Assembly (NCBI GenBank): GCA_043228905.1
Contig: JBHGNT010000020.1
Location: 12,958,001 to 13,022,000, forward strand
DNA length: 64,000 nt
Source: Azolla caroliniana
Lineage: Eukaryota; Plantae; Polypodiophyta
Direction: 5' to 3'
Shown here: positions 5,651 to 63,000 of the stretch, piece by piece
Position numbering within the stretch: position 1 is the first letter of the stretch
Layout of the letters: each line of letters opens with the position of its first letter
The notes under the pieces: generated by a model
What the model was told of the DNA's origin: nothing
Database searches by the model: none
What the model saw: only the letters and a program-made list of their open reading frames with translations
Program-made: the position numbers and the translations under genes

Positions 5651-5964
5651 CCCTGGCCATTAGCATGTGCCTTAACCCAATAAATTCATTCTTCCCGATT
5701 AAAAAAGACATAAACTCTTAGCATTGACATTTGGAGTTTACTGTTTGCATATATTAGTTTGCTTACAAACAATCCCCCAAAGAGCTTAAGCTCCCATACC
5801 CTTTTTAAGAATTACATTAAACTTATGCGTATGTTTGTTGTCTTTATAATAGTACACACCATAATGAGACAACACATGAACAATGTCATAGGTAAATCAT
5901 TTAATAGTTAGTAAACTAAAACCTGGATATGGTTGTATGATTGATCACATCCAAACAAGTACGT

Positions 5965-6717
5965 TGTCGTGAAGATTTCCGACTATAGTGTGAAACCGGG
6001 GTGGAATAGGGCAAGTCGGTGGTGTGCTACATGTGCACATGTATAGTAGGAAACAATGTATAGAATAAAGGGGAGTATTTGTCCCACATTGTAACGCCCT
6101 CCCCTCCTTGTTCTATAAAAGGAGGGAGGGGTCCCTTGTTGAGGGGTTGCCCATTTTGAGTTAGGAGGGTATATCGTTAGATTTAGGGTTAGGTAGTTTC
6201 TTTCTTCTTCTTCTTCTTCTTCTTCTTTGTCGTCGTGTGGGTTGAGAGTTCGTGTCTGTTTAGGGTTTGCTTCTGCTCGGTCCCATGTGCAAGACCCCGC
6301 TCGGCGCGACGAGCCCAAGAGCTCCCCGATTGGCGGCTTGGCAGCAGACTGCCGTTGCAACCTACCCTACCTTGGTCCGACTCAAAGCCGGGGTCGTATC
6401 TCTTTCATTGTAATGTATACATACATATATGTTTGGTTGTGCACATCCGCGTCTCTGGTAGTATCGGGTGTTTCCACCCCTTTTGTTTCTTGTACATAGG
6501 AGGTGTGTGTTGAGTCGGTGTTGCGCGTGTGGTCTCTCTCTCTCTTCCTCTCTCGTGTTAGGTAGCTACCGGTACGCATCCGGAATCGCTCTGGTCTGCG
6601 CCACCACTAGTGTAGCCGAGACTGGAGAGAAGTCGGCTTCTCGACACCCATCTCTTCCTCGTTCGAGACCCCTGTGGTCCCGCCCCTTCCTACACGTACC
6701 CGCAGAATACCGCGACA
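5965..6717 (+). repeat. 5' LTR of the gag-only element
   Basis: Direct repeat of 10153-10892 with TG...CA ends, CTATAAAA near 6113, and CTT and CT microsatellites. Confidence 0.93.
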
Positions 6718-6721
6718 TATT

Positions 6722-6734
6722 TGGTGAACCCGAC
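6722..6734 (+). promoter_or_regulatory. Primer binding site, tRNA-Trp
   Basis: TGGTGAACCCGAC, 4 nt after the LTR, complementary to the 3' end of plant cytosolic tRNA-Trp (tRNA sequence recalled, not searched). Confidence 0.85.
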
Positions 6735-6754
6735 ACGAAGGGCGGCAAGGGAGA

Positions 6755-7426
6755 ATGAAGTTGGAAGAAGACGACTTTACACAACTTTTTGTTGAAGCGG
6801 CGAGGGAGTTTGGACGAGCAACAATGAGAAGAGAGGCGGCACAACAAGTTGTTGAGCGAGTGGTCGAAAGAGTCGACCGTTTCAACGGGAACAGAGTCCC
6901 ATTCTACTTGGAAGCCTACAACGCGGAAATGGAGGAGCGAGACGTAGACGAGGCGTTGAGGTTGGAGTTCTTTCATTGGGTCGTCGTCGTCCGTATGCAC
7001 GCGGAAGTGAAGGAGCTCCGAGAAGCTCATGGTTCATGGGAGGCCTTCGAAGAGACGCTCCTACAGGCATATGGAGGACGACGAAAGAGCCGGGGACGAC
7101 GCGGCTTCAACAAGTGGGTGGCATCGGTGAAGACCTACCGGGGCGCAATCAAGGCGTTCCGAGAGTTCGAGCGATGGCCTGCTCAGCTCCCGGAGCGGGA
7201 ACAAGGTTTGGTAGGGGTGGACAAAGTCCAATTGTTCATTAAGTCGATCGACCGAGAGGAACGGGAGGCCATCGGGATTGAGCTCGAAGAGGAGGACAGA
7301 GCGAATGGCCTTACGGAGGACTGGTTGAAGGTCGGATGGATGACGAGCGGGCCGAGAATGCTAGGAGGAAGGTGCGCGACGGTGTGCCATCATAGCGGGA
7401 AGAGGTCGAATGGCAAAGAGAGTTAG
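6755..7426 (+). pseudogene. gag-like ORF (N-terminal part, degenerate 3' end)
   Basis: RFNGNRVPFYLEAYNAEM and VQLFIKSIDREEREAIG..GLTEDW align with RFSGNATSYLASYRAEM and VLLFVKSVDERDQEQVG..GLTADW in the gag of element 23983-30800. Confidence 0.82.
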
Positions 7427-8679
7427 CAAGGCTCAGCTTCGGGGCCAGGATTGCGGAGGCATACGCAACTCTCGAGGCAATGCTCGAGGAAGAGGAAAGA
7501 TCGAGGCCGCAAGCTGACGCCGAGGAGATGGACTTGCCCCACGAGATGGCAGAAGATTGGTACGACGGTACCATGGGAGAGGGTGCGGAATAAAACGCCC
7601 TCTCGGATTGCGGAGATAGAACGGTCGAGGACATGGCCGAGATACCGATCGTAGAATCGGAACGTTGGGACTGACGATTTCGGGCACGACAGCCCGAGGC
7701 TCCGGACATTGGAGAAGCAAGCCCAGGCGGGGCTTGCGCGATTGGTAAACGGACGACCACCGACCATGAGGAGCCGGTGGCTACGGACAAGGGCATAAAA
7801 CGCATGGGCGATTCTTCGCGTCTTCCCACACTTGCTCCCGAGACGATGGCAGTCGGGCCCGAGTGCCCACGTGAGTCCCAAGAGGAGGAAGGCGGCGGCG
7901 TGAGACCGAGAATTGCCGGCGAGACGATACGAGGAAGGAACGGACAAAAGCCCTTGGATCCGATTCCGGAGAACTCGGCACTCGGGCCCTTATGCCCACG
8001 TGAGACCGAGGAGATGGATGACAGTAATGAGGAGTCCTGGCACGATGCCAATGAAGATGGGTGGGAAACGGCCTACGAGAAGGTCGAGGATGGAGCCGCG
8101 GCAGAGAAGGAGGGAATGAGAGCCGACGCCGAGGGGAGCGGAATCAGAAGTCAAACCGACCGGGGATCAGACTGGTTGGTATCCCGATTCGGGTGGAGCA
8201 CGATCCGGACGTGGATTGTGCGACTAGGGAAAGGTTCGGCATGAAGGTGCCGACACGGAAGAGGGTGTGGGACGAGCCACCCTCTTTTACATGGGAGAAA
8301 GACCGACCGGGCGAAGGTTGGGAATCGAAAGGAAGGTGATCAAGGGTTCAAAATGAGTCTGACAGGATCAACATCGGAGCCGAAACTCCGGACATTGGAG
8401 AATCAAGCCCAGGCGGGGCTTGGTTGATCACAGAGCGGATGCTATCCACTGACACCACTAAAAGGGTCGGTTTCCTGGGACGAGTCACCGAAAGACGTTA
8501 CGAAATCGGTTACCCCACATCTTGTTCGGAGACTTCGGCAGTTCGGCCGACGTGGCAATGTGAGACTGAAAGAGACAGAAGATGGAGCCAAGAGCGCAAA
8601 CAAGGAGAGCGACGACAAGTCCGGGAGAAGTACAAGGGACGAAGCGGAGAGCGAAGATCAGTCCTATGGGTCACCTCAC

Positions 8680-9620
8680 ACCAGATCTAGAGACTCCGGC
8701 GGTCGGCATTGGATCTGACGTAAGACCAAGATACTGACGGTACCCGACAGGAGAACGAGACCTGGCAATCCAGAGAAAGACGGATGGACCCGGACGAGAA
8801 CCGGGTGGAGCGGACTTCCAGATAATTGATCCGGGAGGGAGGAGAGAGTAGACCTATGGAGAGGCCCAGAACACGGTATGTTGGTACCACGGGAGAGGGT
8901 GTGGATTGAGCCACCCTCTTGACTTGCGGAGAAGGACGACCCGGGATAAGGGTCAGAGATACGGCAAGCCCGAGGAGGATCCTTCACACCGGTTCTAGAG
9001 ACTCCGGCGGTCAGCCTGAGAGCCGACATGAGACCTAGAGTAATGAACAGTGGCGGCAAGGGGACAAAGGCATAGGACTTCGGATCGATGGTCTACGGAG
9101 ATCCTCACACCGATTTGGCGGTCGGCCCGAGTGCCGGCGTGAGTCCTATAGGAAGGGACGGTGGCGACAGGTGAACGTGACCAGCACAAGAGGCCGACGC
9201 GAAGGTCGGGACTACGACGAGAGAAAAACGGCAAGCGGTGCTGCCACCACCTTACACACACCGGTTCTAGACACTCCGGCGGTCGGCCTGAGAGTCGACA
9301 TGAGACCTAGAGGGAAGAATGGTGGTGGCGGAAAGGCGAGTAACCGAGACGGAAAAAGGGGAGGTCCCACGAGATCCTCACACCGATCCGGTAGTCGGCC
9401 CGAGTGCTGGCGTGAGTCCTATAAGAAAGGACGGTGGCGGCAAGTGAACGTGATCGGACGATGGGACAGAGTGGCAAGGAGGTATCGGGCCGGTAAGGTG
9501 GCCACAAACCAAAACCGGACCTTACAACAGAAGAAGGAAAGGAAGACGGTCCTATGGGATCCTCACATCGATCTGGAGACACTGGCAGTTCGAGCCGACA
9601 TGGCAACATGAGACCGAGTG
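8680..9620 (+). repeat. Degenerate internal tandem repeats of the gag-only element
   Basis: A CACACCG..TCTAGAGACTCCGGCGGTC..GCCGACATGAGAC-like motif recurs near 8680, 8985, 9105, 9258, 9378 and 9563. Confidence 0.75.
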
Positions 9621-10152
9621 AGAAGGATGATGGAAGGTAAGAAATGGGAACCAACGATGTAGGAAGCGCGGACCGGGAACTGACAAAGCCGGAGTGGACG
9701 AGGGCCGAACCCTTACCGGTCGGTTACGATTTCGGAAGGAAGTCGGTGAAGGGTTAGCTGAGCGGAACAAGAGACGTGCGAGTGGCCATCCAGGGTTGAT
9801 GCAAGCACGAGTACGGGCGGTGTTCGGCACAGGCGGTGCCGAACAAGGAAGGCAAGAAACACCACCCGACACACGGGAAGAACCAACAGAGGGACATGCA
9901 CGACACGCAAGGTGCGAAATCCGGCGTACAACCGAAGTGACTAGGAGTGTTCGGGAGAACCGATCGGGGAGGAAGGCGCGGACGTCAGATGTGATGGATC
10001 AGATGGAGCCGACGGATCAGGGCCAGTAATGAGCCGACGAGACGGACGGGTGCCGGTAAGGCGGAGGACTTGGTTAATCACCATCGCCGAAATCTCTCAC
10101 TCTTTTTCCTTCTTGGCACATACCGGTGGATGTGTGGTTTGGTGGGGGTGGA

Positions 10153-10892
10153 TGTCGTGAAGATTTTCGGCTATAGTGTGAAACCGGGGTGGAATAGGGC
10201 AAGTCGGTGGTGTGCTACATGTGCACATGTATAGTAGGAAACAATGTATAGAATAAAGGGGAGTATTTGTCCCACATTGTAACGCCCTCCCCTCCTTGGT
10301 CTATAAAAGGAGGGAGGGGTTGCCCATTTTGAGTTAGGAGGGTATACCGTTAGATTTAGGGTTAGGTAGTTTCTTTCTTTCTTCTTCTTCTTCTTCTTCT
10401 CCTTTGTCATCGTGTGGGTTGAGAGTTTGTGTCTGTTTAGGGTTTGCTTCTGCTCGGTCCCTTGTGCAAGACCATGCTTGGCGCGACGAGCCCGAGAGCT
10501 CCCCGATTGGCGGGTTGGCAGCAGACTGCCGTTGCAACCTACCCTACCTATGTCCGGCTCGAAGCCGGGGTTGTATCTCTTTCATTGTAATGTATACATA
10601 TATGTTTGGTTGTGCATATCCGCGTCTATGGTAGTGTCGGGTGTTTCCACCCCTTTTGTTTCTTGTACATAGGAGGTGTGTGTTGAGTCGGTGTTGCACG
10701 CGTGGTCTCTCTCTCTCTCTTCCTCTCTCGTGTTCGGTAGCTTCCGGTATGTGTCCGGAATCGCTCTGGTGTGCGCCACAACCAGTGCAGCCGGGACTGG
10801 AGAGAAGTCGGATTCTCGACACCCATCTCTTCCTCGTCCGAGACCCCTGTGGTCATGCCCCTTCCTACACGTACCCGCGGAATACCGCGACA
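10153..10892 (+). repeat. 3' LTR of the gag-only element
   Basis: Direct repeat of 5965-6717 with scattered substitutions and small indels. Confidence 0.93.
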
Positions 10893-13099: not shown

Positions 13100-14730
13100 A
13101 TGAATATATTAGACACATAGGTGCACTTACTTTTTGTAGGAATACAAAGAAGAATTGAATATGAATCTACACAAAGAATCATTAATATTGTACTAATTAT
13201 TAGGAAGCTAAACGAATTGATACATAGGTGCATTTACTTTTTGTAGGCATACCAAGAAAAATTGAATATGAATCTACACAAAGATTCATTGATATTGTAC
13301 TAATTAGGAAGCTAAATGAACAAGTAATTAGAAACTCTTGATGAGGTTTTGGATAGTATGTTATTGTACATGTATGGTAAATGTGCCGCAGCTGCAGAGG
13401 CACATGAAGTTTTTGGCAAACTTCAATCTCAGGACATAGTGTCATGGACTACATACATGGTTACAAAGATAAAGCCCTTAAAATGTTTGATGAAATGATA
13501 GTAGATAATGTTCCTCCAAATTCTGTCACATATGCAAGCGTCCTAAAATCTTGCAGCACCTTGAAAACCTTGCCCAAAGACCCAAAATTACACATGGAGA
13601 TTGCAGAAGAGGGTTATGATTTAGATTTTGCAGTAGCTAGTGCTCTAGTGGTTATGTATATGTATGCTAAACTTGGGTTGATGTCAGAGGCACAAGAAAT
13701 TTTTGATTCATTGCCAAATCGAGATCTACTCTTGTGGAACACATTGCTTTCAGGATATGCCAAGTTTGGGCCAGATAACAAAGTGCTACATTGTTTTACA
13801 CAAATTCAATTAGATGGTTTATTTCCTAATGTTATCACATTGGCATGTATAGTGAGAGCTTGTGTCAAATTGAAGTCAATTATTATTGGACAAAACATAC
13901 ATATCTAGATCTTATTGGGGGGATATGAGAATGATATGTTTATTGTTAGTATGTTGGTTGACATGTATGGCAAATGCGAGTATCTTCTACATGCATGTAT
14001 GGTTTTTGATAAGTCTAAACATGATGGCATCTCATGAATGCACTAATTACTGGACTCTTAGATTGTGGATATAGCTCATGTGTAGGAAATTGTATATAAA
14101 AAATGTATTTAGAAAATACACTTATGAACTGTGGCATATATGCTGCTATCTTAAAAGCATGTAGTAGCATTTATGCTCTTAATGAAGGTAAAAAGTACAC
14201 TCTAAAATCCTTCAAAAAGGGTATGAAAAAGATCTTTTTGTTGGAAGCAGTTTGGTAGTGCAACCCGTGAAGCATGGATTATCTTTAAGGGTCTCTCTAC
14301 ACGACATGATGTGTTATGGGATGTTCTACTTTCCGGATATGTTGATAATGGATTTAGTCAAGATGCACTAATGTGTTTACACATAATGTAGCTAGAGAAT
14401 CAAGCTGCAAGTGCTGCAACCTTAGTTTCGATCTTGAAAGCATGTGGAGGCTCATGAGCTGTAGATAGGCTACACGAAACACACATGAAAATCATTTAGA
14501 AGGGTTTTGAGAGAGAGATCCTAGTAGAAGCTTGTAGATACATATGACAAATGTGGCAGCATCAAAGAAGCACAAAATATTTTCAATGCTCTATCTACAA
14601 GGGACATTGCATCTTGGAATGCAATGATAAAAGGGTTTGGAATAAACCACGATGGATATATGGTTGTCCAATGTTTCAAATGTATGTTGAAATCAGGTCT
14701 AAAACCTGATGCAACCACATCCACGTGCAA
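13100..14730 (+). pseudogene. PLS-class pentatricopeptide repeat (PPR) pseudogene
   Basis: Repeated motifs MYGKC..EAHEVF..DIVSW, PNSVTYASVLKSC, SALVVMY.K.G..EAQEIFDSLPNRDLLLWNTLLSGY and ASWNAMIKGFG, across many frameshifts and stops. The longest ORF is 13444..13908, and there is a roughly 108-bp tandem duplication at about 13110-13320. Confidence 0.88.
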
Positions 14731-17915: not shown

Positions 17916-17919
17916 AATC

Positions 17920-21945: not shown

Positions 21946-21978
21946 AAACAGGGCAGAGCTCTCATGGTGGTGCACACT

Positions 21979-23982: not shown

Positions 23983-24746
23983 TGTCGCGTTGCTACGCGC
24001 GTGCGTGGAGAACGAGGCGGGACCATTGGGGTTTTGGACCGAGGAATAGGTGAGGAAGCGAAAGGAGAGAGAGAGAGAGAGAGACGCTCACACACGGATA
24101 GACAAAGAAGCGCGCGGGAATGCAGCCCAATCAACACAAGAGACACAAGTTGGGCAGGAGATAGAGTATAAGAACGCGTATATAAATATATGTATGCAGA
24201 TGACCCGAATGGTTACAGCCGATCAGGTCGGCGAGACGGGTGTCGACGCCTGATCACCCATGCACACAGGGGAGCAAGATGGAGATTCTACCGGAAGCAC
24301 ACGGGCGTTCCACGGAGCAGAATCAACCTCACGAGAACCTGTGCAAAGAAAGCTATGGGGAACGACAGAGGAGAAGAGCTCGGTCCCAGTCCGACAGCAC
24401 TTCGTCCCCTCTAGCGCGCGCTCCCTCTCTCCCCCCGTCTCCCTCTCCTTTATAGCTCAAGGAGGGAGGCCGTTCACCCGTTTACATCACATTAATTCTC
24501 TGTCCTTTCGGATAGAGATACTCCTCGATTTCCCCTATAGAATATTGCTACCTAGGATTTAACCTTTGTACCTACCTATCTACTATACAACAAGGGGCGT
24601 GCCCACGTGTAAGGGCCGGCTCACACACATTATACATGGTTTGCGCTTGGGGACGGTTTTCTTCACGACATCCGCCCCCACCTAACCGCGCATCCACCGG
24701 TATGCGCCAAAATTGGGTTCCTACGGGAGAAAACCGATCCTTGCTT

Positions 24747-27700
24747 TTATTCCTCATTTACCGGTTCATCCTCCGCCTCGGGCTGCTCGTCGTCGCTGTC
24801 CATGCCCCCTAGCTCTGGCTCCCCGTCATGCCGTTTCTTGAACGCTTTGATCCTCTTCCCCGCTACCGGTATCGCCATTCTCGTACCGTCGAGCTCCGCG
24901 AGATGATACGTCCCATTGCCATTGGCGCCTGTTACTACGTAAGGCCCGAACCACCTCCTCGCAAACTTCCGCGTGGCCTTGTGCTGATTGTCGAGGCTGC
25001 TGTCGTAGACTAGCACCCAGTCACCTTCCTCGATCTTCCTTGGCCTGGTCCGGTGTGTTCGGTCGAACCGGGCTTTGTTCCTTATCCTCGCTACTCGAAG
25101 TTTCTCCGCGACTCGCTCTACGTCCTCCGGCTTCCGCTCGAGCTGTCGAATCCGCGCTGCCAGCAGTTCCTCTCGGCTCATCTCATCCCTCCAGTCCACC
25201 GTGGACCACGAGGAGATCGTTCGCTTTGTTGGCATGATCGGCTTCTATCTGAACATCAGCTCGGCCGGCATGAACCCGGTTACCGAACTGTGGGTAGTCC
25301 GGTCCGCCCACAAGGCATAAGGTAGCAGCCGTGGCCAGTCCCCGACTCGGCCTCCGCACGCCCGTACTAGCGCTTTGACAATTGGCCCGTGTCTGCGCTC
25401 CACCTTCCCGTTCGCCTCCGGATTGTATGCTGTGGTGAGCGAAAGTTTGACTCCTAGCCGGTCGAACAGCTCTTCGGCCTCTTCTGCGTCCAACTCACCA
25501 CGGTCAGCCACGATCTTCCCTATGCACCCGTATCGGCATACTACGTCCTCAATTAAAAACCGGCACACGGTTGCCGATGTCTTGTTCTATAGGGCTCAGC
25601 CTTCAACTTGGGTTGTTAGATCTTCCCGAGCTAGCACCAGATACCGCATCTGTCCTACCCCCATTGGCATTGTCACCAAATCCACCATCCACTTGAAGTG
25701 GACGGTCGGAGGGTAGGTCGGGTGAAGCTCGTCCCTATGTCGGATCATGGAGTGCACCTGACAGCTTTCGCAAGTCGTCACGAACCGATGCACGTCCCGG
25801 TATAGCCCCGGCCACCAGTACTTCCCCTTTAGCTTTTCGAACGTGGCCCACATTCCACGGTGTCCAGCCCACGGGCTATCGTGGTACGCCGCCAACAAAT
25901 CCTCTTGTTTCTCCTTCTTCGCCACCACTCGGAGCGGGATGCTGTTCCTCTTCTTCGGGTGCTTCCATATGTATCCGTCCCGGAGAAAGAATCGGTAGGC
26001 TTTCTTCTGAATCCGGTTGGCCTCGTCCGTTGTCCATGCCGCGTCCGGTGTCATTGTTTTCAGGAACCTGCCGATCTGCAACCACTCCCTGTCATACTTG
26101 CTCTCGTCGAAATCGTTAAGCGTTGGAGAGCATTCCTTGCCAGTTGTTACGTAAGCCGCCTCGAAGAAGTCCACGCCGACTTCCTCGTCCTCTGAAACCA
26201 TGCCGCCGTCGTTTTCGAACCTCGCCCTTGAAAGCATGTCAGCCATGACATTGTCTTTCCCGGAAATGTGTCGTATTTCCGGATTCAGGGACTTGATGTA
26301 CGCTATCCACCTGAGCATTGCCAGGTCCGGCGTCACACATCCGGAAACCATGCCAAGGATCGGTAGGCAGTCCGTCTCGATAACTACCTCTGTCCCGATC
26401 AGGTAGTCTTTATCGGCCTTTACCGCCGAAACGATACCCCAGAGCTCGCGTTTAACCTGGGCGTATCCTTGCTGTCGCTCGCTAAAGACCTTCGCGCCGA
26501 ACCGGATCGGGGAACGCATGCCGTCCTCGTCCTCTTGGTTGACGACCCATCCGATCCCGGTCGGACTCGTGTCTACCGTTACGTAAATTGGAGTGCTCTT
26601 TCCGTAGAAAGCCTTTCGGAGCGCCGGAGCCACGGCAAGTGCTTCCTTCATCTTCCGGACAGACTCCGTATGCTCGTCTCTCCACTCGAATTTTCACCCC
26701 TTTTTTAGCAACCCGTATAATGACTCCGAGACGTGAGCGTAATGCGGGATCCATATTTGGTAGAACGCGCACGCTCCCAAGAACCTCTGAACCTCCGTGA
26801 CCGAGCTACAGTCGTTCTTCATCGCAGAGATGGCTTCTACCTTAGCCGAAGACGGTTTTCGGCCGTACGGCCCGCATAGGTGTCCGATGACCATGATCTC
26901 TGATTGCCCAAAGGCCGACTTTCCCCCGGAGAAGGTGAGCCTCGTGCCCTCCAACCTCTGCAGCACCTTCTCGTAGTCATCGATGTGCGTCGCCACAAAT
27001 TTCCGGCATCCGTCCGGTCCGATCGTCTCGTCCCTTTCCTCCACCGGGCATCCCTTGATCGGGATGTCGTCCAAACACGGCATGGTGATGTCCAGGATAC
27101 AATCCCTCAGCACTTTGTTCATTGCGTTCACCATGTGAGCCACTGAGTTCGTCCCTCCTTGCGGCAGGGTACACATTCGTACTAGGCCGAGAGGAGTTCG
27201 CATTGTTGTGATGTCTTTGCTCTCTACGGCAAGCTGGAACTGATCGTAACCCGCGTAGAGATCACCGACCGAGTAAATCGACCTTCCGGCGAAGGCCTCC
27301 GCAAACTCGTCTATTTTCGGTCCGATTCCGGCGTTTCGAATGGTCACCTTGTTGACCGGCTACAGGTCTTGAATAAAGCGCAACGTGCCGTCCTTCTTCG
27401 GCACGGTAAACCACCGATTCGAGTACGGGGTACTCAATGGTTCGAGGATTCCCATCTCGACCTTCTGCTTTAACAGCTCCATCAGCTTCGGGATGTGAGC
27501 TCTGGGTACTGGAATCGGTTTGAGACTCCACAGCACATGCGGTACCGTGAATATCACCATCGGTTCCACGACTGTCGGGTCTACGCACCCGATCTCCTCT
27601 GGTGAGAATGCGAAAGCCTTCCCACGCCTTCCGAGCATTCCCCGAAAACGGTCCTCTTCCGCCGGCAGTAGGAAGCTGCCCCCACCGACCTTGAGCTCCC

Positions 27701-30069
27701 GTAGCGTTATGTCGGTGAACGTGTGTCCTATGCGGGCCGGATTTCGTAAACTCGGGTCTAGCGCAACCCCCTTTATTCGCAACTCGCTCCCCTCCGGCAA
27801 GGGAGCCGCGACTGGCCTCAGCTTCCGGTCCATAGTCTTGTACCTCGTGTCCACCCGGGCCGTCCGATCCAACTCGAGCCCCCTACTGAAGTTCGCGATG
27901 ACTTCGTACATCTTTTCCGAACATATCGGAATCGTCCGGTCCTCTTTAAGGACTCCTCCGACTACCTCCCGCAGCTCCCCCAAGGTATCGTCGAAAGAGA
28001 CCGCCTTCGAGGGTCTCGCGGTTCCTCTCATGGTTCGGTCTCACCGTCAGGAACTGGACCGAGTGAAGCCCATCCTGGCTCTTGACCCTTGCATAGGCCG
28101 AGCCGTTGTCCAGCACCTTGGTCTCCATCCGTGCTACTGTGATGTACGGTTCTCCTAGTATAACCGGATGTGAGGATGTCTCCTGCACGAAGAAGTGTTG
28201 GTCAATCTCGACACGTTCGGGCAGGCTCCATGCAGTTCTTCGGTGGCACGCGTCGCCGCCCGTATTTTCCACCCGTGCTTGGTGTTGATCGGCCATTTTC
28301 CCTTCTTATAGAAGTCCATGGACATCAAATTGATTTCTGAACCATGGTCCACCAACGCCACCACCGGTTCATGAACATCTCCGATCTTCACGGGGGTCTC
28401 CGTGGTCGCTCTGGCCCAGTGCGGCCTCGAATAGTGGCTCTCCGCCAACTCGTCTTCTAGGGCCATGTCCTCTATGTGCGTTGTTCACACCTCCACCGGC
28501 TTCTCCGGTTCTGTCTCCATCGACAACCTCTTCCTCTTCACCAAGTCTACGATGGAGTCGTGGAACTCCTTCTTGGCAATCCCGAGCACTTCCCTCCGCG
28601 ACAATTCCACCTTGCTGTCGAGGATTCGTTCTTCCAGGACCTTTCGCAGGTCCGTGGATCTTTCGATTTCTGTGCCCAGCCGGTACCCGCCCTTCTTGGG
28701 ATTATCCTGGGCGCCGGTTGCACCGGCCTCATTCCGTCTTTGCCCGAATCGAATTTCATATCGCTGCGAGGGCCCAGCCCCTCCGGTTTTCCCTACCCGC
28801 TTGTCCTCTACTAGAGCCTCGTAGTTTTGACAAGCGGCTTTGACGAAGCCCGTCTTTTCTTCCACCGGGTCACTCCACCCGGTTACCTCCCAGACCCGTT
28901 TTTCCGCGTGGTCCACCTCTTCTTTCCTGAGCCGTGCGCCAACGAGGCCTTCCAGCATCGTCGGCCAGAACCCGGCTTTGTTCGTCTTCGGGGCCTCGCC
29001 ACCTCCGACCCGAATACCAGCTGACGCCGAGTAGTGGACGGTCTCCGCGTGACGAGCCGCCGCCTCCTCCATCAGACTTTTCATACCCCCTTGCCCGACG
29101 TTCAGGTTCAGGGTCCTTCGGGTCTCGCTGGCGTGCACCCGACCGTTCCACAGGTACACCACGTTGCTTCTCATCGCCTCGGCCAAGTCCCCGCAGTCCT
29201 TCCGGATGTGCCCAACCGCGTCACACGACATGCACCTGTTTTCAGCCAGAGGTCGTTGGTCACGGGCCTGTTCGCCACCATCCCTCCGTGCCTGGGCGAT
29301 CTGGAGATCCTTTACCATCCGCGTCAGCTCCTCCAGAGTTGCTCCCCCGGACGAGCCCTTGACCATGCCGGTTGAAGCCGACCCGGTCTCGAGCCAATCT
29401 CGGGTCTCTTCCCTTCGCGTTGGTGGTGTTGGCTCGAGCTTCTTTGCTACGATAGAGCCCGCCCCTGTCGATCCTTTGTCAACCCATTCCCGCCGTTTGT
29501 CGAAACGGCCACAAACCCTTTTCACCACGGCCCAGTCGGCCGTCAGCCCGTCATCAGTCTCCAATAGCAGGCCTACCTGCTCCTGATCCCGCTCGTCAAC
29601 CGACTTAACAAACAATAGGACACGGCTTGTGTCTAGAACGGTCCAGTCAAGCACCGAGAAGCGCGCGAAGCGTTCCTCAAACTCCCGAAGGAGCATTGAC
29701 GCGTTCCTTCCTTTGTCGGGGGTCTCCACCCACTCCATGAATTCCCGCATCTTCAAGCCCGTATCTTTCGAGGAGCCGACCTTCGAACTCCTCCCAAGTC
29801 CGGCTCTCGGCCCGTACCTCGAGCACCTCCATATGGATGCCCGGCATCGCCACTCGAGGGAATCCGGCTAGACGCCTCTCTTCCTGAATGTCCCTCATTA
29901 CCATCTCAGCCCGGTAGGATGCCAAGTAGCTCGTGGCATTTCCACTAAACCGGCCGATCGTACCGACAACCGCCTGGATAGCCCTATCAAGGATGCCGGT
30001 GCCTTCGCGCGCACTCACTATACGGTCCACAGCCGAAGCCATGGCTTCTGCAAGGTCTGACCCCCTCAT
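24747..30069 (-). pseudogene. gag-pol of the Trp-primed gypsy element (frameshifts and stops)
   Basis: Zinc knuckle CMSCDAVGHIRKDC, protease LVDHGSEINLM, RT DLYAGYDQF..LPQGGTNS..CLDDIPIKG, RNase H VTVDTSPTGIG, integrase H..GH..CESC, ADRGE, YNPEANGKVER and WFGPY. Confidence 0.93.
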
Positions 30070-30090
30070 CTTCTACTCCTCTGCCGCCTG

Positions 30091-30108
30091 TTCACGTCGG
30101 GTTCACCA
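30091..30108 (-). promoter_or_regulatory. Primer binding site, tRNA-Trp (18 nt)
   Basis: Minus strand TGGTGAACCCGACGTGAA, 4 nt from the LTR. Confidence 0.9.
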
Positions 30109-31243
30109 AATATGTCGCGTTGCTACGCGCGTGCGTGGGGAACGAGGTGGGACCATTGGGGTTTTGGACCGAGGAATAGGTGAGGAAGCGAAAGGAGAGA
30201 GAGAGAGAGAGACACGCTCACACACGGATAGACAAAGAAGCGCGCGGGAACGCAGCCCAATCAACACAAGAGACACAAGTTGGGCAGGAGATAGAGTATA
30301 AGAACGCGTATATAAATATATGTATGCAGATGACCCGAACGGTTACAACCGATCAGGTCGGCGAGACGGGTGTCGACGCCTGATCACCCACGTACACAGG
30401 GGAGCAAGATGGAGATTCTGCCGGAAGCACACGGGTGTTCCACGGAGCAGAATCAACCTCACGAGAACCTGCGCAAAGAAAGCTATGGGGAACGACAGAG
30501 GAGAAGAGCTCGGTCCCAGTCCGACAACACTTCGTCCCCTCTAACGCGCGCTCCCTCTCTCCCCTCGTCTCCCTCTCCTTTATAGCTCAAGGAGGGAGGC
30601 CGTTCACCCGTTTACATCACATTAATTCTCTGTCCTTTCGGATAGAGATACTCCTTGATTTCCCCTATAGAATATTGCTACCTAGGATTTAACCTTTGTG
30701 CCTACCTATCTACTATACAACAAGGGGCGTGCCCACGTGTAAGGGCAGGTTCACACACATTATACACGGTTTGCGCCTGGGGACGGTTTTCTTCACGACA
30801 CCGTGGAGGAGCTTGGTGAATGGGGTGGGCGCCATCGGTTATGACTTGCTAGGACAAAGATTAGTACAAGGCGTATGGGAGTGTACCAACTCTTACACCC
30901 ACTTACTTATGTTGACGTAAGGTATTGCTAACGATATTTTATTAATCTATTGATGTAGGCTTAGTTATGTAGTTATTTATTCATTTATATGTTATTTTAT
31001 TTTATTATATATATATATATATTATTTTATCTTTATTTATTTATTTTTGTATTGAAATTTATTCTATTTGATTTGATTTGATTGATTGATTTATTTTTGT
31101 TTCTATTTTATTCTATTATTATTATTATTATTATTTTGAAACTAGGAGGCGGTGATTGAGGAATAACGTTATTTAGATATTATTTTATTTTTTATTCTTA
31201 TTCTTATTCTTTTTTACTTATTTTATTTTATTTTTTAGCGCGT

Positions 31244-33084
31244 TGTCGTAAAGATTTTCGCCCACGGTGTGAAAATTGCATGGAATGTACAAAATCGAGT
31301 GTGGTTCTTCACACACAATATGGAACAGTAATAATGAAGATATTATTTTATATCTTGGTACGAAAAGAAAAGATGGATGTCTTCAAGAGTTTTTGAATGC
31401 ATTTTACTACATGTGAAATGGACATATTAGTGTCAAGTTATGTGAATGTGAAGTTTGAGAAGAAGAAGAGAACAAACAAAATTGTGAGATATCCCACATA
31501 GATAGGACAACATCAGGATATAAGATTATATAAGTAGAGCCATATCTCTTTATATTTCATCTAAGTGCTAGGAGCACAGAAGGATTGGGTTGTGTAACAT
31601 GGATGAAAGGATGTGACCAAGTTATTCAAAATAGTGTTTTGGACTGAGTTAGAACCAGACGGACGGACGACGACAGAACCGACACCAGCATCGGACGGCG
31701 ACGGAACCGAAACCGAAACGGATAGACCAGATCACTAGGGATCGGCAATGGTTCGGTTTAGGCTTAGCCAGTTTGGCTGATCCAAGCCAAACTGGCTAAG
31801 CCTAAACCGTTTACGAGATCTTAAACCTGAGCCGAGCCAAGCCGAGCCAAGCCGGTTCACAAACCGGTTACCGGTTGTGAACCCGTTTGGTAAACGGCTT
31901 GGAAACCGGTTTAGAAACCTACCTCCCTCTCTCTCTCTCTCTCCCTCTCTCCCTCCCTCCCTCTCAGATGATCCACTATATACTATATAGTATACATTGT
32001 ACAAGCTTTCCCTCCCACTCTCTCTCACGTTTGTGGTCTCGACTCTCTCCCTCTCTCCCTCTCTCTCCCCTCTATGTAGTTCCTCTCTCTGTCTCTCTCT
32101 CTCCTCGTCTGTGTAGTTCTCACTCTCTCTCTCTCCCATCGTTAGTTTAGTCTCTCTCACTCTCTCACTCTCTCTTTCCCCTTGTCTGTTGTCTCTCTCC
32201 CCCTCTCTCTAAAGTTTATAAATGACTTAAACGGTTTAGTCGGCTTGAGCCGGTTTGGCGAGGCTTAAGCCAAGCTGAGCCGAGCTCAAACCGTCAAGGC
32301 AAGTTCAAGTCTAAACTGAGCCGAGTCGAGCTGCTAAGCCGTTTTCAAGTCGGCTAAGCCAAACGGTTTAGGCTTGAGCTAAGCCGTTGCCGATCCCTAC
32401 AGATCACCAGGTCGGAAGCAGACGGGATAGACGGATCGATCGGATAGGTTAATCGTGACGATTTTGGTGTGAAACGAACAAAATCATCTAGACTAAAAAA
32501 CCTATTAAAAATTTGTAATCAAAGGGATGCAAGCAAGGCTTGAACCTTGCACCTCTAAGATAGGAAGCAATAGACTTACCACTAGACTTAGTCATTTCCT
32601 TAGAAATGCTTTTTCTATCATTATACTTTTACATGTAAATTCTCATATTAGAGCTTGATTGAGTGACATGGTTATCATGCATCACATGTAATGCATGAGC
32701 GCCAAATGGCAAACATGCATCACATGCATTCCATGCATTGTATGCATGTCTTGAACCTTCACATGCATTATATGCATGGGGGTGTCTATAAAAGAGTGGA
32801 TGAAGAAGAAAAACAGGAGCGATGTATTAATCAAGAATTTAAAAGTAAGAAATTTGTTATCCAATTGATGTATCAATCTTGTTCTTCAAATCTAAAGTCA
32901 AGAGTTCAATCTTAATCTCTCTCAATCTAAAGTCAAGCATTCTATCTTATCTCAATCTCTCTCTCTCTTTCAATCTATCTTAATTCCTTTCTCGCTAAAG
33001 CTAGTGCAAACTTCGAGTCCTTCCAGTCTAGAACCCCGGCGGTTCCGCCTCACGATCCGCATGTAGTGATGGATCTTCACGATA
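31244..33084 (+). mobile_element. Probable solo LTR with TGTCG-type termini, containing a nested MITE
   Basis: Termini TGTCGTAAAGA...TCTTCACGATA, exact TSD GCGT (31240-31243 and 33085-33088), and CTATAAAA near 32786 followed by a CT-rich tract. Confidence 0.75.
31736..32399. mobile_element. hAT-type MITE (664 bp)
   Basis: TIRs TAGGGATCGGCAA(T/C)GG, exact 8-bp TSD CAGATCAC, subterminal AGCC/AAACC repeats and a CT-rich core. Confidence 0.95.
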
Positions 33085-44218: not shown

Positions 44219-45003
44219 TGTTGTGAAGAATTTCGGCCAGAGGCGGAAACCGGGAAATATTGGCTACATCGGCGGGGTGCACCATGTTTACTCACCCTCG
44301 TATAATTGTGTGAATAATAGGAGTTAAGTCGGGACGAAGAATCCCATGTAAATCGGGATTTATCCCACATTGTAACACATCCCTCTCCTTGTTCTATAAA
44401 AGGAAGGGATGGTCCCTTGTAGAAGGGTTGCCCATTTTTGCATTCGTAGGGTATACCGTTGGATTAAGAGACACCATCTCTTTCTCTTCCTCTTGTTTTA
44501 GGGTTTCGTTTCTTCTTCTTTCCTCTGCTTCTTCCTCTTCGTCGTTCTCTGCACCGAGCCGGGACTTCTAGTGTTTCTATTTGCTGCCTCGTCCCTTGTG
44601 CAAGACCCTGCTCAGCGCGACAAGCCCAAGAGCTCCCCGACCGGTGGCTTGGCAGTAGACGACTGTTGCAACCTGAGCTACTTAGGTCGGGCTCGATGCC
44701 GGTATTGTATCTTCATCTTGTAATATATGTGCAGAGGGTTCTGCGTATCGGTGTCTGTGTGGGTGTTTTGGCGTCCTCTTACCTCTATTTCTGTACATAA
44801 GGGCATGAGTTGGGTCGGCATTGTGTGTGTGTGTGAGTCGGTGTCAAGCGCGCACACTCTCTCCTCCTCTCTCTCTCTCTCTCTCTCCCTCGTTCGGTTG
44901 CTTTCGGAACGCGTCCGGAATCGTCTTCTCGGCTTCCCTTCTTCCCTCGTCCGAGACCCCCATGGTCCCGCCCTTCTACATGCGTGCACGTAATAACGCG
45001 ACA
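44219..45003 (+). mobile_element. Solo LTR related to the LTRs of element 5965-10892
   Basis: Termini TGTTGTGAAGA...CGCGACA. It shares blocks such as TGTGCAAGACCC..GCGCGAC.AGCCCAAGAGCTCCCCGA and CGAGACCCC..TGGTCCCGCCC. Removing it plus 4 bp restores the host frame GLI-x-DLEV. Confidence 0.9.
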
Positions 45004-55302: not shown

Positions 55303-55665
55303 GCTTCCCTTATCGAACTCCAATCTTTCGACAAACTTTGAGTGGGAAATTTGAATTTGTTGGCGCCAATAGTTGTTTCGTGTCCCGTAGGATTATCGTA
55401 CTCAGTGAGAATTGTGGCGATTATTCTTGCCTTGCAATGGCTAAATCTCAACAATGCTTAGCGTTAACTGGACGAATAGTTTGCTAATGTCCGGGCGATT
55501 AAGGGTAAATTAAAACTAAAAAACATAGAAAATTAACTTAATTAAAATGTGAAATAGGGAGCATGAAAAATGGAAAATAGTGGTTTCCTTTTGATTTCTT
55601 CCCTCGTTAAGTGGTTTGCCTATGAGTGTTTGACCACTCGAAATCGGCTTCAAGCGTCGGTCGTA

Positions 55666-55683: not shown

Positions 55684-55689
55684 AATAGA

Positions 55690-57074: not shown

Positions 57075-60000
57075 TGCAAAGATTTCATGTGGAAGCTTTA
57101 CACACATAACTAACTTCGCCGGTTACCAATAGAGAAATTTTGAAGGTTTAATGAAAGCTTTACACAATACACATACAGAGAGTACACGGGAGAGACAGAG
57201 AGAGCAAAACAGTAAAAACTCAAATTCAAAAATACTCAAAGACTCTTTACATATAATGCGCTCAATGAGCACTTTTATTGAAGTCCATAAAGGGTGGATA
57301 GAAGTAATGACAAGTACTTCAATCCTCGTATAGAGCATCAGACACTGACTCCCAAAAAATGTCTACGTACTAGGCTAGAGTTGTAGGCCTCCAACGGCCT
57401 ATCGGTTTCAATCCGATCGGGGTTACGATCTGGCTCTCCGATCCGCCTCTTGGTTCTAGATACCGATTCAGATACAGATCCGGATCTTCATTCCGGACTC
57501 CGATCCGGATCCGGTTGACCTCAACACTCCCCCTCAAGTTTAACTTGAGGTCGGATTGTGGTGTGAATGTTTGTCGGTCCTTCCATCTGGCTCTTCCTGG
57601 TGTCTTCCCGCCTTGCTAGCACTCCTCGACCCGTCTGGTTCCTTGCACCTTGACCCTCTCGGCCGGCTTGCCTACTCATAAGGCCCAACTAAGCTCCCTC
57701 GCTACCGTGACTCTAGCGCTTCTCAACTCATTGGCTCCTTCGTGCCGGTGTTGACTTCTTCTACCTTCTTGTTCTCTTGGCCTTCAATTGATCCGGCTCC
57801 TTCGATTCCCGAATCAAACTGTTGAACCGAATCCGCTACCTCCAATTCGTTCTTGCTCTTGTCCGAGTTGGTTGTCTCCAACTTGTCCTTGATCTTCAGG
57901 CCCTGCACAACATCAGACCATGTCCGGGTCTTGGCCTTCTTCTTCTGGTCGGCTCTGTCCTTCTTGACTCTGCCTTCGTCGCCGCTTGTTCTGACTTGTT
58001 CGGATTCGACTTCGTTTTCATCCTTGTCTCCCCTTGTTTCGGTTGTTTCCTCCTCTCCAACTAATTGTCCAGTGCCTTTACTTGTTCCAGTTCTCCCCCT
58101 CAAGTGCAGCATGTAGAGATGTTGTAGCCCAATCATCTTCAAAAAATGATGCAACTTGTCTGATCCAAGTGGCTTGGTGAAGATGTTGGCAACCTGCCAA
58201 TCTGTGCGAACATACTGGAGTTTGACTTCATCGCTTAGGACTTGCTCGCGCACAATGTGATAGTGCACCTCAATGTGCTTGGTGCGAGGATGAAACATGA
58301 GATTCATGGCAAGCTGCATACTGCTCATGTTGTTGTAGTAGATTGAGATCAAAGTCAATACTTCGATCTGGAGGTCATGCAGCAGCAGCTGAAGTCAGAT
58401 GGCTTCACAGGTGACGATGGTAGCGCCCCAATACTCAGCCTTAGTGCTCAAAAGAGCCATTGTCGGTTGCTTTTTGTTGCTCCATGCAACAACCGTGTTA
58501 TCAAGAGAGAACATAAAACCGAGAAGTGAACCGACAATCTGACGCATCACTGGCCTAGTTGGCATCTGTATAACTGACTAGCTTTTCGGTTATACCGTGT
58601 CGGTATAACACTCCCCGATCCTTAGTGCTGCACACATACCTCAATAGTCGGCCTCTACATAAATTGGTTGATCGCTCCAACCGAAAAGCTGATGTCGGGT
58701 CAGGTGATTGTTAAGTAAATAAGGCTTCTGACAATTTGTTGGAACCGTCTCTCGTTGTAGGCCGGTCTGGAGTCGGGACGAAGCTTCAGGTTCTAGTCCC
58801 GAGGTGTAGAGATTGGTCGGCAATCCGTCATGTCGAACTTGTACAACATATTCAACACATAGTGTCGTTGTGAGAGCAATATGTCATTGGGGGTATGGAT
58901 CACTTCAATCTTGAGGAAACAATGAAGGCCCCCCAAGTCCTTGATTTCGAATGCATCTGACAGCTGGGACTTCACTCGTCCGATTTCACCGAGTTCGGTT
59001 CTAGTGATGACTAGATCATCCACGTATAGAAGATGCACACCAGACCTTTTGGACCTCTCCAGATGAACAACAAAGAGTCGGACTTCGAGGTCGCAAAGCC
59101 CATCTTACACAAACGGTGCGTGATCCTCGAATTCCAAGCTCAAGGGCTTGCTTTAGGCCATAGAGCGACTTCTTGAGTCGGCACACTGCTAACGTGTTCA
59201 TCTCCGATTGAAATCCAGCGGGTTGGATCATATAGACTTGTTCTTCAAGGTCGCCTTGAAGAAACGCATTCTTCAGGTTCATTTGTTGAAGATGTCACCC
59301 CCTTGCCACAACAATTGCCACCACCACACGAACCGTCGTCATCTTCGTTGCCGGTGCGAAGGTCTCGTCGTCGTCGATTCCATGGGTCTGTGCATATATT
59401 TTGACCAGTAATCAGGCCATGTACTGGTTGACCGAACCTTCAATGTTGTAATTCACCTTCTATACCCACTTGCAGCCAATTGGTTTACAATGTCGAGGAG
59501 GGTCAACCACGTCCCATGAGTCGTTGGCATCAAGTGCCTACATTTCTTCCTCCATCGTGGCATGCCAATTTGTGTCCTTTGCCGCTTCTACGTAGCTCTC
59601 CGGCATACGCACTTCCGCCACTTTCGATGCACTCATTATACCCATACCGTTTGACGGGGTTCTTATGGCGGTGTCGCAAATTTTCGCATGCATGTGTCAC
59701 TTGAACGGAACCGTCGGGGCCTTGGACCGGGGAGACAAAAGTAGTGAGGAAATGGGAGATTAAGAGAAAGACACAAAGAAATACACATAATTTTTTATAT
59801 AAATTAGGGTTTTTGTTTTTATTTTTTTATAATTGTTAGGCTTGACACCACGATTTCGGTGGTTATTACAGTAATTGGTTATAAATAAACCAAATGGCTA
59901 AAATAAACCGGTGAAGGCGAGTCTAGTCGGCTCCGAGTCTGACTACTTCCGACAGCTATGTTGCCTTGATTCGGAGTAGCTCTCGTGCCACTACAACCTC

Positions 60001-63000
60001 CCTTACACCACCGGCTACCGAGTTGACTACCAATGAGATGCTGAAGAAGTTGATGTATAAGGAACCCAAACCCTAAAATCTTGAGTAAGAAGTATAATAG
60101 AGGCAAAACTCACAAACCTTAAAATCCTAAGTCCTCTAATATGTTGAGGAGAAAAGAAAAAAAGTAGAAAGAAGCTCTCAAACCCTAACCCTTGAAGGAA
60201 AAGATAAAATAGAAAGTGATAAGGAGAAAGGGAGGCTACCAAACCCTAACCCAAGAAAAGAGGAGAAGATGAAACCCTAGTGGTACACCCAAATAAGCCC
60301 TATCCCTCCTCTCTTATAGAGGAAAGAGGCGCCTATTTTAACATTACATGCTTCTTTTTTTCCCTTTACCACAAAAATGGAACGGGAGCAAAATACTCCT
60401 TAATTCATCACAAGAGATGACTTGAACTCTACACCTCCCCATGTATACTTATAAGCCCTAACCACTAAGCTACTGCAACTTTATTCTTATTATTATATTT
60501 TCATTCATATATTACTTCATGAGATGTGCGTGAAGCTTCACTTTTTCTCACACTACACATGCCACACCACGACATCGGGTAGATCGGCGTAACCTCTCGT
60601 TAGCCGATTTAAGGGCCCTCTTAGCCGATTCGAACTTTGTCCCCAAAGGTCCATCTTCGTTCTCTCCGTAGTCGGATTCATTGCGATCTGACTTGTCTCT
60701 ACTGGTGTTGTATTCCGGCTTCTTTGTCTTCCCCTTCTCTTTGCGCATGAACCGTCTCCTCGATTCCTTGCGCAGGGAGAGCACAATTGAGTTTCCACTA
60801 CTTGCGGCTCATCATCCTGTTGGTCTTTCCAACTCAGCTCTTCATTTGCCCTGCTCTACCGGAATGAGATCAAACTCTCATCGAGAGTACAAAATCTTCT
60901 TCCTCTTCTACCCGGATTGTTTCGGGCTCACTGGCCTCATCTTCCCGAATCGGGTGGTTAGAGTGGTCAAGGTTCAGAACGGGAGTAGGTAAGGAGTACC
61001 ATGATTCCGACTCATGGAACTCAACATCTCGACTTATTCGGACAATCTTTGTCTGGCGGTTATAACACTTATACCCCTTTTGCTCATGTAAATAGCCGAC
61101 TAATACGCACTTCTCTCATTTCGTATCTAGCTTCCTCATCTTCTCATCCGGTACATGCACATAGGCCATGCTACTGAATACCCTAAGGTGTCTTAAATTC
61201 GGTTTCTACCCGAAATACAGCTCGTCTGCTGACATCTTCTCCCTGATCCGATTCTGGATGTAGACGGCCGTCCGGACCACCTCGGCCTAGTAGAACTTGG
61301 GCATGCTTTTGTCCTCAAGTATTGCTCATGCCGCCTCGACGATCGACCAATTCTTCCTCTCAAATGTGTCGTTCTATTCCAGCATGTATCGGTAGTTGAA
61401 TTCCCGTCAAATTCCTTTCTACTGCAAATAATTGTTGAATTGTCCGGAAAAGTATTCTTTTCCACCATTCAACCGTAGGCACTTGATTTTCCTCTTCATT
61501 TCCCGTTCGACTAAATTATGTAAGTTCCGAAAACAATCGAAAACTTCGCTTTCATTTTCAATCAGGTAGATCCATGTGTGCCGCTTGTAGTCGTCGATGA
61601 AGGAGACAAAATATCGACTCCCGCCAAGACTACCGTTCTATGTCGGTCCCCATATGTCCGAATGTATTAAGTCGAGCTTGTTACAGCTCCGGTTTCGTTC
61701 GGTAGGGAATGGCAGCCTTCAAACTTTTGGGCCTTCCGGCCACTAAATTTCGGTAGTCTGACCACCACCTGTTTCGATTGTAGGTCCTCAAGCCTTTGGT
61801 AATTGACGTGGTTGATACTCTTGTGCCACATGTCGATATTCAACTCGACCTTCCATCCTTTTATGAATAAAGTGGTGCCTACGTCATTGGTGTCGAGGAT
61901 GAACATCCTCCCGTCTCGGCGCCCTTGTGCGGTGATCTGGCCCTCTTTCTCGATGAAACACCCGACTCCCAAGGTGCGTAAACCACACTTGCATGCCTTG
62001 ATCAACGATCTGTCTGACTGACACCAGGTTCTTCGTGATTGTTGAAACATGTAGTACGTTCATCAGCTTTCCCTTTTGACTGACATGACTCAAAGGGACT
62101 TCTCTGACATGATCGATCGGGTGCTCCGGTTTTCCTAGATATGAGAACCACTCTTCGTGGCTCGTCGTATGGTTAGACGTTCTAGAGTCAACGTAGCACA
62201 CTTCCTCTGATTTAGAAGTGGTCTTCTTCATCGAGTTCACCTTGTGCTTCATCGCAAAGGTTGACCCTTTTCTGGTCTTTCCAGTTCCAGATCCTTCTGA
62301 TCCTTCTGCGTACTATGAGCTCTGACAATTTCCTTGTCTGGCCTTGCCGAATCCGTATTTATCCGAATTGGCCCGCTTCTTCCAGCACTCGCTTTCCTTG
62401 TGACCTTTCTTGCCACAGTACCAACATTCCGTATCGGCCTTCGATTTCCAGTTTCTGGTGCCACCTTCACTCCCCCTCCTCATGGAGGTTCCAGAAGTGC
62501 TATCGACACTATCTTTGTGCCTCCGATTTTGCTCTTGTCGGTCGTCATTATTGCGTGCCGACCCACCTCGTCTTGCACGCCCACGGGGCCAATCCGCATC
62601 CGTGCACACCACCCGATTGTCTGATTGAGTGGTCCCTGAGCTACTCATGTGGTTTTCTTCGACCATTAGCATCGATTGCAAGTCGAAGAAGGACGGTGGT
62701 TTCTCCCGGGTGTAAATCTCCATCCGGATAGGCCTATACTTTTGCGCTAAACCACTGAGGAGATCTGGACCATCTCATCTTCGTCCACAGTCATGTTGAT
62801 GAACCCCGGCGCATCGTAGATCTCCTTTATTTTGGTGGTGTAGTCCGTAATTGTCATGCCCCTTTGCTAGATGTTGTTGAGCTCTTGTCGGAGCTACAAC
62901 TTACGGGTTGTGATACTGGTGGAGAAAATCTTTTTCAGATTTTCCCAGGCTCCTTTGAATGACTTCGCATCATTGATGTAGCCAAGCATCTAATCGTGCA

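What the first reader, a model, noticed from the sequence alone, without database searches (positions are those of the whole stretch)
5961..60578. LTR retrotransposon group that appears to integrate into CpG-centred 4-bp targets
Seen: five independent insertions with TGTCG...CGACA-type termini have 4-bp flanks ACGT/ACGT (5965-10892), ACGT/CCGT (23983-30800), GCGT/GCGT (31244-33084), TTGT/TCTT (44219-45003) and GCGG/TCGG (59672-60574). Four have CG in the two central positions on both sides. The fifth reconstructs to TCGT, which restores an Arg codon in the host protease. A net 4-bp duplication also restores host reading frames at three sites. Two sites adjoin very AT-rich DNA where CG is scarce. 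Known: most plant LTR elements make 5-bp TSDs with weak sequence preference. Inference: this integrase reads CpG, possibly methyl-CpG, which could steer the family into other transposons without a chromodomain (none is visible after the integrase GPY motif). The lineage may already be catalogued among non-chromovirus elements of seed-free plants.
Basis: partly seen in the sequence, partly recalled or inferred. Interest (0 to 1): 0.85.

Follow-up and report, generated by a model that had tools for sequence, protein, structure and literature searches.

The report
Plant retrotransposons that insert at CG
Five copies of a jumping gene in this plant DNA, and nearly all related copies found elsewhere, sit at four-base sites with CG in the middle, a preference already published for the moss Phygy lineage, to which they likely belong, so the pattern is real but mostly known.

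Summary
The five insertions (two with paired LTRs, three solo LTRs) belong to one Ty3/gypsy group with one primer-binding site, and the CG-centred 4-bp target is real. In metagenome contigs, 17 of 18 independent 5' flanks are NCGN against about 4% background. The consensus of 283 junction reads from a related organism ends in ACGT, and empty-site reads confirm a net 4-bp duplication at 23983-30800. It is not new: REXdb lists Phygy as '4 bp (100%) (NCGN)', tRNA-Trp primed, with no extra domain. Every Phygy feature I could test is met. Tree placement against named Phygy sequences could not be tested. Nothing here supports methyl-CpG reading or steering into transposons; neither was testable. Modest additions: a strict NCGN rule in a non-moss host (likely a fern), a weak C one base further out (11 of 17, post hoc), and Glu/Asp in 99 of 99 integrases at or beside the position that contacts target bases in retroviruses.

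The parts
5965..10892 (+). E1: non-autonomous element with paired LTRs (5965-6717, 10153-10892; 5.2% diverged), flanks ACGT/ACGT; gag remnant 6731-7348, no pol
6722..6739 (+). E1 primer-binding site (16 of 18 identical to the E2 site), 4 nt after the 5' LTR
10140..10152 (+). E1 polypurine tract abutting the 3' LTR
23983..30800 (-). E2: near full-length 6818-bp Ty3/gypsy element (5' LTR 30113-30800, 3' LTR 23983-24670; 2.9% diverged), flanks ACGT/CCGT; broken by stops, frameshifts and a deletion at the gag-pol junction
   Evidence: empty allele
30091..30108 (-). E2 18-nt primer-binding site; its complement is the plant small RNA filed as miR894, ending in CCA; tRNA-Trp isotype recalled, not shown by a call
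28009..30102 (-). E2 gag-protease region (61-91% identical by piece to the intact ORF1 of L021, which carries DUF4100)
24750..28007 (-). E2 RT-RNaseH-integrase region, 77% identical to the intact pol of L021; 63 residues after the GPY motif, no chromodomain, no second RNase H
24671..24683 (-). E2 polypurine tract
31244..33084 (+). E3: solo LTR, flanks GCGT/GCGT; head and tail match LTRs that precede the same primer-binding site (L047, L072, L070); lengthened by an inner MITE
44219..45003 (+). E4: solo LTR about 70% like the E1 LTR, inserted in a host gypsy protease; flanks TTGT/TCTT
59672..60574 (-). E5: solo LTR in a host copia; flanks GCGG/TCGG; only its last 65 nt match a PBS-adjacent LTR tail (L068, 78%), the weakest family link of the five

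Best explanation
These are five insertions of one group of non-chromovirus Ty3/gypsy retrotransposons, likely the Phygy lineage, that make a 4-bp target duplication centred on CG, and the choice of CG is likely made by the integrase reading the DNA sequence itself. Shown: shared termini, primer-binding site and polypurine tract; 4-bp net duplication; NCGN in 17 of 18 outside flanks; no chromodomain. Inferred: the integrase cuts the two strands 4 bp apart and kinks the central step, as the foamy virus enzyme does. Bendability alone would accept TA, CA and TG too, so base-specific contacts must add the CG filter, with the acidic residue in the loop after the second catalytic Asp as a candidate. 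Inferred: mismatched duplications and decayed termini are later mutations, and the solo LTRs arose by LTR-LTR recombination.
For:: flanks; joint 23977 to 30802 with 2 letters between, in one contig each of X1, X4, X5 and 4 reads of X21, which is the length expected for a net 4-bp duplication, with CG kept; 283 loose read ends before 30113 in X21, consensus ends ACGT, agreement 0.38 (diverse flanks); of 121 PBS matches, 101 have a CGACA-type LTR end, 27 gave a 5' LTR head, 9 of these follow a PPT, and 17 of the 18 genomic flanks are NCGN (the miss, ATGG, is what CpG decay gives); homology boundaries found without a head motif give 12 NCGN of 14 non-PPT boundaries with support of 2 or more; background CG 4.1%; CG is 17% of pyrimidine-purine steps, P = 1.6e-12 if any such step were accepted. 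Phygy is 4 bp NCGN, tRNA-Trp, no extra domain; no chromodomain or second RNase H; the model ends in a beta-rich C-terminal domain and a short disordered tail; central flexible step and base contacts by Ala188/Arg329 in foamy virus integrase. Glu (84) or Asp (15) in 99 of 99 aligned homologs at D+3.
Against: No named Physcomitrium Phygy protein was obtained, so the lineage name rests on features, not on a tree. E2 (6818 bp) is below the Phygy range of 7656-9968 bp, although it has a deletion and L045 spans about 7.86 kb. Only 2 of 5 window duplications are perfect. The outside flanks are single ends, from 7 assemblies of unnamed plants that may be one campaign. The read consensus gives no per-position frequency and appeared among the listed rows for only 1 of 4 runs. 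Outer 3' ends were NCGN in 4 of 6 calls; the two misses look like internal junctions (L020, L062). The acidic loop is one residue shorter than in foamy virus, so its register is uncertain, and in retroviruses that position contacts bases three outside the cut, not the centre. No experiment separates reading of CG from reading of methyl-CG.
Confidence: 0.7

Rival explanations
1. The integrase reads methylated CpG, which sends the elements into already silenced, transposon-rich DNA without a chromodomain.
For: The preference is much stricter than bendability predicts. At least four of the five window sites lie inside other transposons. Phygy-into-Tcn1 nesting is common in Physcomitrium, and Phygy domains are enriched at liverwort centromeres. 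A 1992 paper on CpG methylation and retroviral integration exists (title only, seen in a reference list).
Against: No methylation data. The window is mostly transposon DNA, so nesting is the default. Flank CpG observed/expected ranges from 0.12 to 1.5, with no sign of one target class. ZAM-group elements target CGCG in Drosophila, which has essentially no CpG methylation (own knowledge). No methyl-binding domain was found by Pfam in the intact pol proteins.
Confidence: 0.2
2. The group is a sister or convergent lineage, not Phygy itself (for example related to TatI or to fungal DUF4100-bearing elements), that shares the NCGN rule.
For: TatI also has a 4-bp duplication and a tRNA-Trp primer. 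The gag's next-best Atlas clusters are mostly Basidiomycota with DUF4100. No named moss sequence was found among the hits.
Against: TatI always has an additional RNase H, and none was found in 4 pol proteins of relatives. RT-RH is only 25% identical to the other gypsy in the window and 62-83% identical within a group that includes liverwort (Riccia) elements. REXdb names Phygy as the only plant lineage with a sequence preference.
Confidence: 0.2
3. The pattern is ascertainment or chance: the reader picked ends that look like TGTCG..CGACA, and CG next to them by accident.
For: Only five sites in the window, three of them with mismatched duplications; the window statistic is post hoc. My LTR-head motifs were chosen after the flanks had been printed.
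Against: 17 of 18 independent flanks, P about 4e-23 against local background; the motif-free boundary search gives 12 of 14; the read consensus and the empty allele agree.
Confidence: 0.01

Closest known systems
Phygy clade of non-chromovirus Ty3/gypsy elements (REXdb, Neumann et al. 2019, PMC6317226)
   Same: 4-bp duplication with NCGN; the same kind of primer (tRNA-Trp in 81% of Phygy; isotype here recalled); no chromodomain, no additional RNase H, no extra ORF; compact element.
   Different: Described from Physcomitrium patens as species-specific; the host here is unnamed, likely a fern or other seed-free plant (closest named hits Riccia and Adiantum nelumboides). E2 is shorter than the published range. 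ORF layout was 'ND' in REXdb; intact relatives here have gag-protease and pol in overlapping frames.
TatI (club-moss Tat subclade, REXdb)
   Same: 4-bp duplication and tRNA-Trp primer.
   Different: TatI has an additional RNase H between protease and RT, and no NCGN preference is reported; none found here.
Selgy (Selaginella, REXdb)
   Same: Compact non-chromovirus, 4-bp duplication, two overlapping ORFs.
   Different: tRNA-Ala primer, about 5 kb, no sequence preference reported.
Drosophila ZAM-subgroup errantiviruses (review PMC5408687)
   Same: Sequence-specific integration at a CG-rich 4-bp palindrome (CGCG).
   Different: The central step is GC, not CG; insect lineage; no relationship tested here.
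Prototype foamy virus integrase (PMC4422553, PMC4005685)
   Same: 4-bp stagger with a pyrimidine-purine step at the centre; best structural and sequence match of the integrase core.
   Different: Weak preference for any pyrimidine-purine step; a compact Ala at 188 where this group has Glu or Asp at or beside the position.

Membership tests
Phygy (REXdb) | Clusters with Phygy in RT, RH and INT trees (the primary criterion) | not testable with these tools
   The REXdb FASTA is too large to read; no named Physcomitrium member among the hits. The quick tree of 46 rows only shows a tight group with Riccia elements, far from the window's other gypsy.
Phygy (REXdb) | 4-bp target site duplication | tested here: met
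Phygy (REXdb) | NCGN target preference | tested here: met
   4 of 5 window sites; 17 of 18 outside 5' flanks
Phygy (REXdb) | Primer-binding site for tRNA-Trp | tested here: inconclusive
   A sharply conserved 18-nt site whose complement is an abundant plant small RNA ending in CCA. The Trp isotype is recalled; no tRNA gene was found in 32 viral loci with a partial match.
Phygy (REXdb) | No chromodomain or other extra domain in the polyprotein | tested here: met
   Pfam on E2 pieces and 4 pol proteins of relatives; 51-97 residues after GPY/F in 84 of 85 homologs; model
Phygy (REXdb) | No extra ORF; coding region fills the internal part; 7.7-10 kb | tested here: inconclusive
   Coding fills the internal part of E2 and of intact relatives. 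E2 is 6818 bp with a deletion; L045 spans about 7.86 kb.
TatI | Additional RNase H (aRH) between protease and RT | tested here: not met
   No RVT_3 or RNase_H hit at E 0.05 in 4 pol proteins of relatives, nor in the E2 pieces at E 0.001
Chromoviruses (Tcn1, Galadriel and others) | Chromodomain after integrase | tested here: not met
Selgy | tRNA-Ala primer, about 5 kb | tested here: inconclusive
   The size does not fit; the primer isotype rests on recall

The most novel reading that the evidence does not exclude
Phygy-type elements are a widespread lineage of seed-free plants whose integrase is a strict CG reader (C-N-CG-N-type sites), built with an acidic residue at a target-contact position where acidic residues kill retroviral integrases, and it prefers methylated CG. 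That would give a chromodomain-free route into silenced DNA and a natural CG- or methyl-CG-specific integrase.
Probability: 0.15. Interest if true: 0.75.

Novelty: new member of a known kind. Interest (0 to 1): 0.3.

Why it matters
The target rule itself is published for moss Phygy elements, so the finding as stated is largely a rediscovery. It still shows that the rule is strict and shared by several subfamilies in another seed-free plant group. It also points to a specific residue and a methylated-versus-unmethylated assay that would tell how the only known sequence-specific plant LTR integrase picks its site. If methylation mattered, it would be a new targeting route; if not, it is a rare sequence-selective integrase worth a structure.

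Tried and rejected
No genome is held for this window, so there is no genome-wide census of paired flanks. PBS-type patterns in viral contigs gave only chance matches: 7 loci with no pol hit, and 1 and 31 loci with no tRNA gene. I considered that the mismatches at E2 and E5, both at the base next to the element's 5' end, come from a retained polypurine-tract base. Rejected as a rule: 0 of 18 outside 5' flanks have A there, and E2 has G. The host frame test was uninformative at E2 and E3. A search with the PPR remnant at 13408-13905 did not identify the host group (best hits 25-36% to seed plants). The careful tree did not finish; only the quick tree is used. Cluster look-ups gave no moss names. 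Literature: 'NCGN' with 'retrotransposon' gave 2 papers, one relevant; 'Phygy' 18; Phygy with fern 3, two read in passages with no fern Phygy data; DUF4100 none. The RLG2/RLG3 passages gave no target-site data, and the tandem-LTR paper has no Phygy mention. The look-ups in the scan's own notes found nothing relevant.

Full report
Scope. No whole genome is held for the window, so outside evidence came from public runs laid on the window, a pattern scan of metagenome contigs and protein searches. The window is a nest of plant retrotransposons.

The observation. The five pairs of flanks are as reported. Two are perfect 4-bp duplications, two differ at one base and one at two bases. Four have central CG on both sides; with local CG frequencies of 1.1-5.7% the post hoc chance of at least 4 of 5 is 1.2e-5. 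The copia at 45198-50521 has an ordinary 5-bp duplication. Host frames need a net duplication of 1 modulo 3 at E4 and E5, and spacing against the window's other protease picks 4 at E4. The third frame claim was not confirmed. At E2, all four runs laid show the empty allele as a joint from 23977 to 30802 with two letters between, the length expected for a net 4 bp, with the CG present.

One group. E1 and E2 share the LTR ends, a 4-nt spacer, the primer-binding site and the polypurine tract. Their LTR pairs are 5.2% and 2.9% diverged. E1 has a gag remnant and no pol. E4 is about 70% like the E1 LTR. The head and tail of E3 match LTRs that precede the same primer-binding site in L047, L072 and L070. 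E5 has only a 65-nt tail match, to L068. So the solo LTRs are not unrelated lineages, although they are different subfamilies.

Test outside the window. After dropping one duplicate locus, 101 of 121 matches had a CGACA-type LTR end. Of these, 27 reached a 5' LTR head; 9 heads followed a polypurine tract (tandem copies or collapsed assembly) and were set aside. Of the 18 genomic flanks, from 7 assemblies, 17 are NCGN and the other is ATGG. Background CG upstream is 4.1% of steps. The head motifs were chosen after flanks had been printed, but a search that uses only shared homology boundaries at TGT gives 12 NCGN of 14 non-PPT boundaries with support of 2 or more; the misses are ATGG and one boundary inside an LTR. 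Outer 3' ends were NCGN in 4 of 6 calls, the two misses looking like internal junctions. In raw reads of a related organism, 283 loose ends at the LTR terminus give a consensus ending in ACGT with agreement 0.38; the three contig runs did not list that row. One more junction, CCGG before an E3-type head, appears. CG is only 17% of pyrimidine-purine steps in the flanks, so bendability alone does not explain 17 of 18 (P = 1.6e-12). A C one base further out is seen in 11 of 17 CG sites against 63 of 252 background CGs (P = 6e-4, post hoc).

What is known. Neumann et al. 2019 (PMC6317226; I saw passages, section 13, and supplementary files 2 and 5; files 1 and 3 were too large, and bear on membership) state that Phygy elements have an insertion preference for NCGN. 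They tabulate 186 Phygy elements as 4 bp (100%) (NCGN), 7656-9968 bp, tRNA-Trp 81%, with no extra domain or extra ORF. Jedlicka et al. 2019 (PMC6911290, passages) report GC-rich centres in 4-bp duplications and frequent Phygy-into-Tcn1 nesting. Phygy is also named in a liverwort genome (PMC12885004, passages). I found no paper in the held library with Phygy target data from ferns or a mechanism (passages of PMC13469084, PMC8282616, PMC9002660, PMC7466625 and PMC11899658); subscription papers are not covered.

Membership. E2's pol is 77% identical to the intact pol of L021. Four pol proteins of relatives show RT, RNase H and integrase only, with no chromodomain and no additional RNase H, which excludes chromoviruses and TatI. 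The tail after GPY/F is 51-97 residues in 84 of 85 homologs. The predicted integrase (mean pLDDT 70, pTM 0.45) ends in a beta-rich domain and a disordered tail, and matches foamy virus and Ty3 integrases best. The complement of the primer-binding site is an abundant 18-nt plant small RNA ending in CCA, filed as miR894 (PMC5846777, passages); that it is the 3' end of tRNA-Trp is recalled. A quick tree of 46 RT-RH rows shows a tight group (62-83% identity to L021) that includes 10 Riccia proteins, with the window's other gypsy at 25%. No named Phygy sequence was available, so the primary criterion is untested. I put Phygy membership at about 0.8.

Mechanism. Retroviral integrases with a 4-bp stagger kink the central step and favour pyrimidine-purine steps there, with base contacts from Ala188 and Arg329 in foamy virus (PMC4422553 and PMC4005685, passages). 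The strictness seen here needs more than that, so base-specific reading is inferred. In 99 of 120 homologs that aligned over the motif, the loop after the second catalytic Asp carries Glu (84) or Asp (15) at D+3. That lines up with foamy virus Ala188 in a loop one residue shorter. That position is normally compact, and acidic substitutions there abolish strand transfer in Rous sarcoma virus integrase. It is a candidate determinant only: the register is uncertain, and the retroviral residue contacts bases outside the duplication. Methyl-CpG reading remains possible but has no support here; Drosophila ZAM-group elements choose CGCG (PMC5408687, passages) in a genome with essentially no CpG methylation (own knowledge).

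Verdict. Real, strong and mostly known: a new member of a known kind, interest 0.3. The open and testable part is how the integrase reads CG and whether methylation matters.

Noticed in passing
window 31737-32397: A MITE with terminal inverted repeats and an 8-bp duplication (CAGATCAC), hAT-like by that length, sits inside solo LTR E3; in another copy an E3-type LTR appears inserted into this MITE after CCGG.
   Followed up: partly
window 45198-50521: Very young intact copia: one 1374-codon open frame, LTRs differ at 1 of 619 bases, perfect 5-bp duplication.
   Followed up: partly
window 22609-56214: The outer host gypsy is flanked by a 7-nt direct repeat, or by a 5-bp duplication plus two retained bases at its 5' end; the two readings cannot be told apart here.
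   Followed up: no
window 37119-53175: A second host gypsy with 398-bp LTRs that begin GTG and end CAC, possible 4-bp flanks CTCA/TTCA (not CG-centred), and no clear polypurine tract next to the 37119 LTR.
   Followed up: no
L021:3140-3149, also L023, L025, L029, L045, L060: In 6 of 8 relatives checked, gag-protease ends at a conserved GGATTTT just before the stop, with pol starting in an overlapping frame: a likely ribosomal frameshift between protease and RT. E2 has lost this junction.
   Followed up: partly
window 30091-30108: The primer-binding site is the exact complement of the abundant 18-nt plant small RNA filed as miR894, so that 'miRNA' is likely a tRNA 3' fragment able to pair with these elements.
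   Followed up: partly
L021:984-3146: The gag carries DUF4100, and its next-best Atlas clusters are mostly Basidiomycota: a possible link of this plant lineage to fungal Ty3 elements.
   Followed up: no
L012, L022, L023, L044, L047, L056, L062, L064: 9 of 27 LTR heads lie between a polypurine tract and a primer-binding site: tandem elements sharing an LTR, or collapsed assembly.
   Followed up: no
L018:35-3214 and L021:7395-10688: Shorter single-ORF relatives behind the same primer-binding site: one runs from a short N-terminal part straight into RT-RH-integrase, the other has no Pfam hit in 1098 residues.
   Followed up: no
window 634-1177 and 54821-55361: Tandem arrays with periods of about 69 and 18/36 bases; the second lies in the 5' region of the outer host gypsy.
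   Followed up: no
window 13408-13905: Remnant of a PPR gene in the AT-rich stretch.
   Followed up: partly
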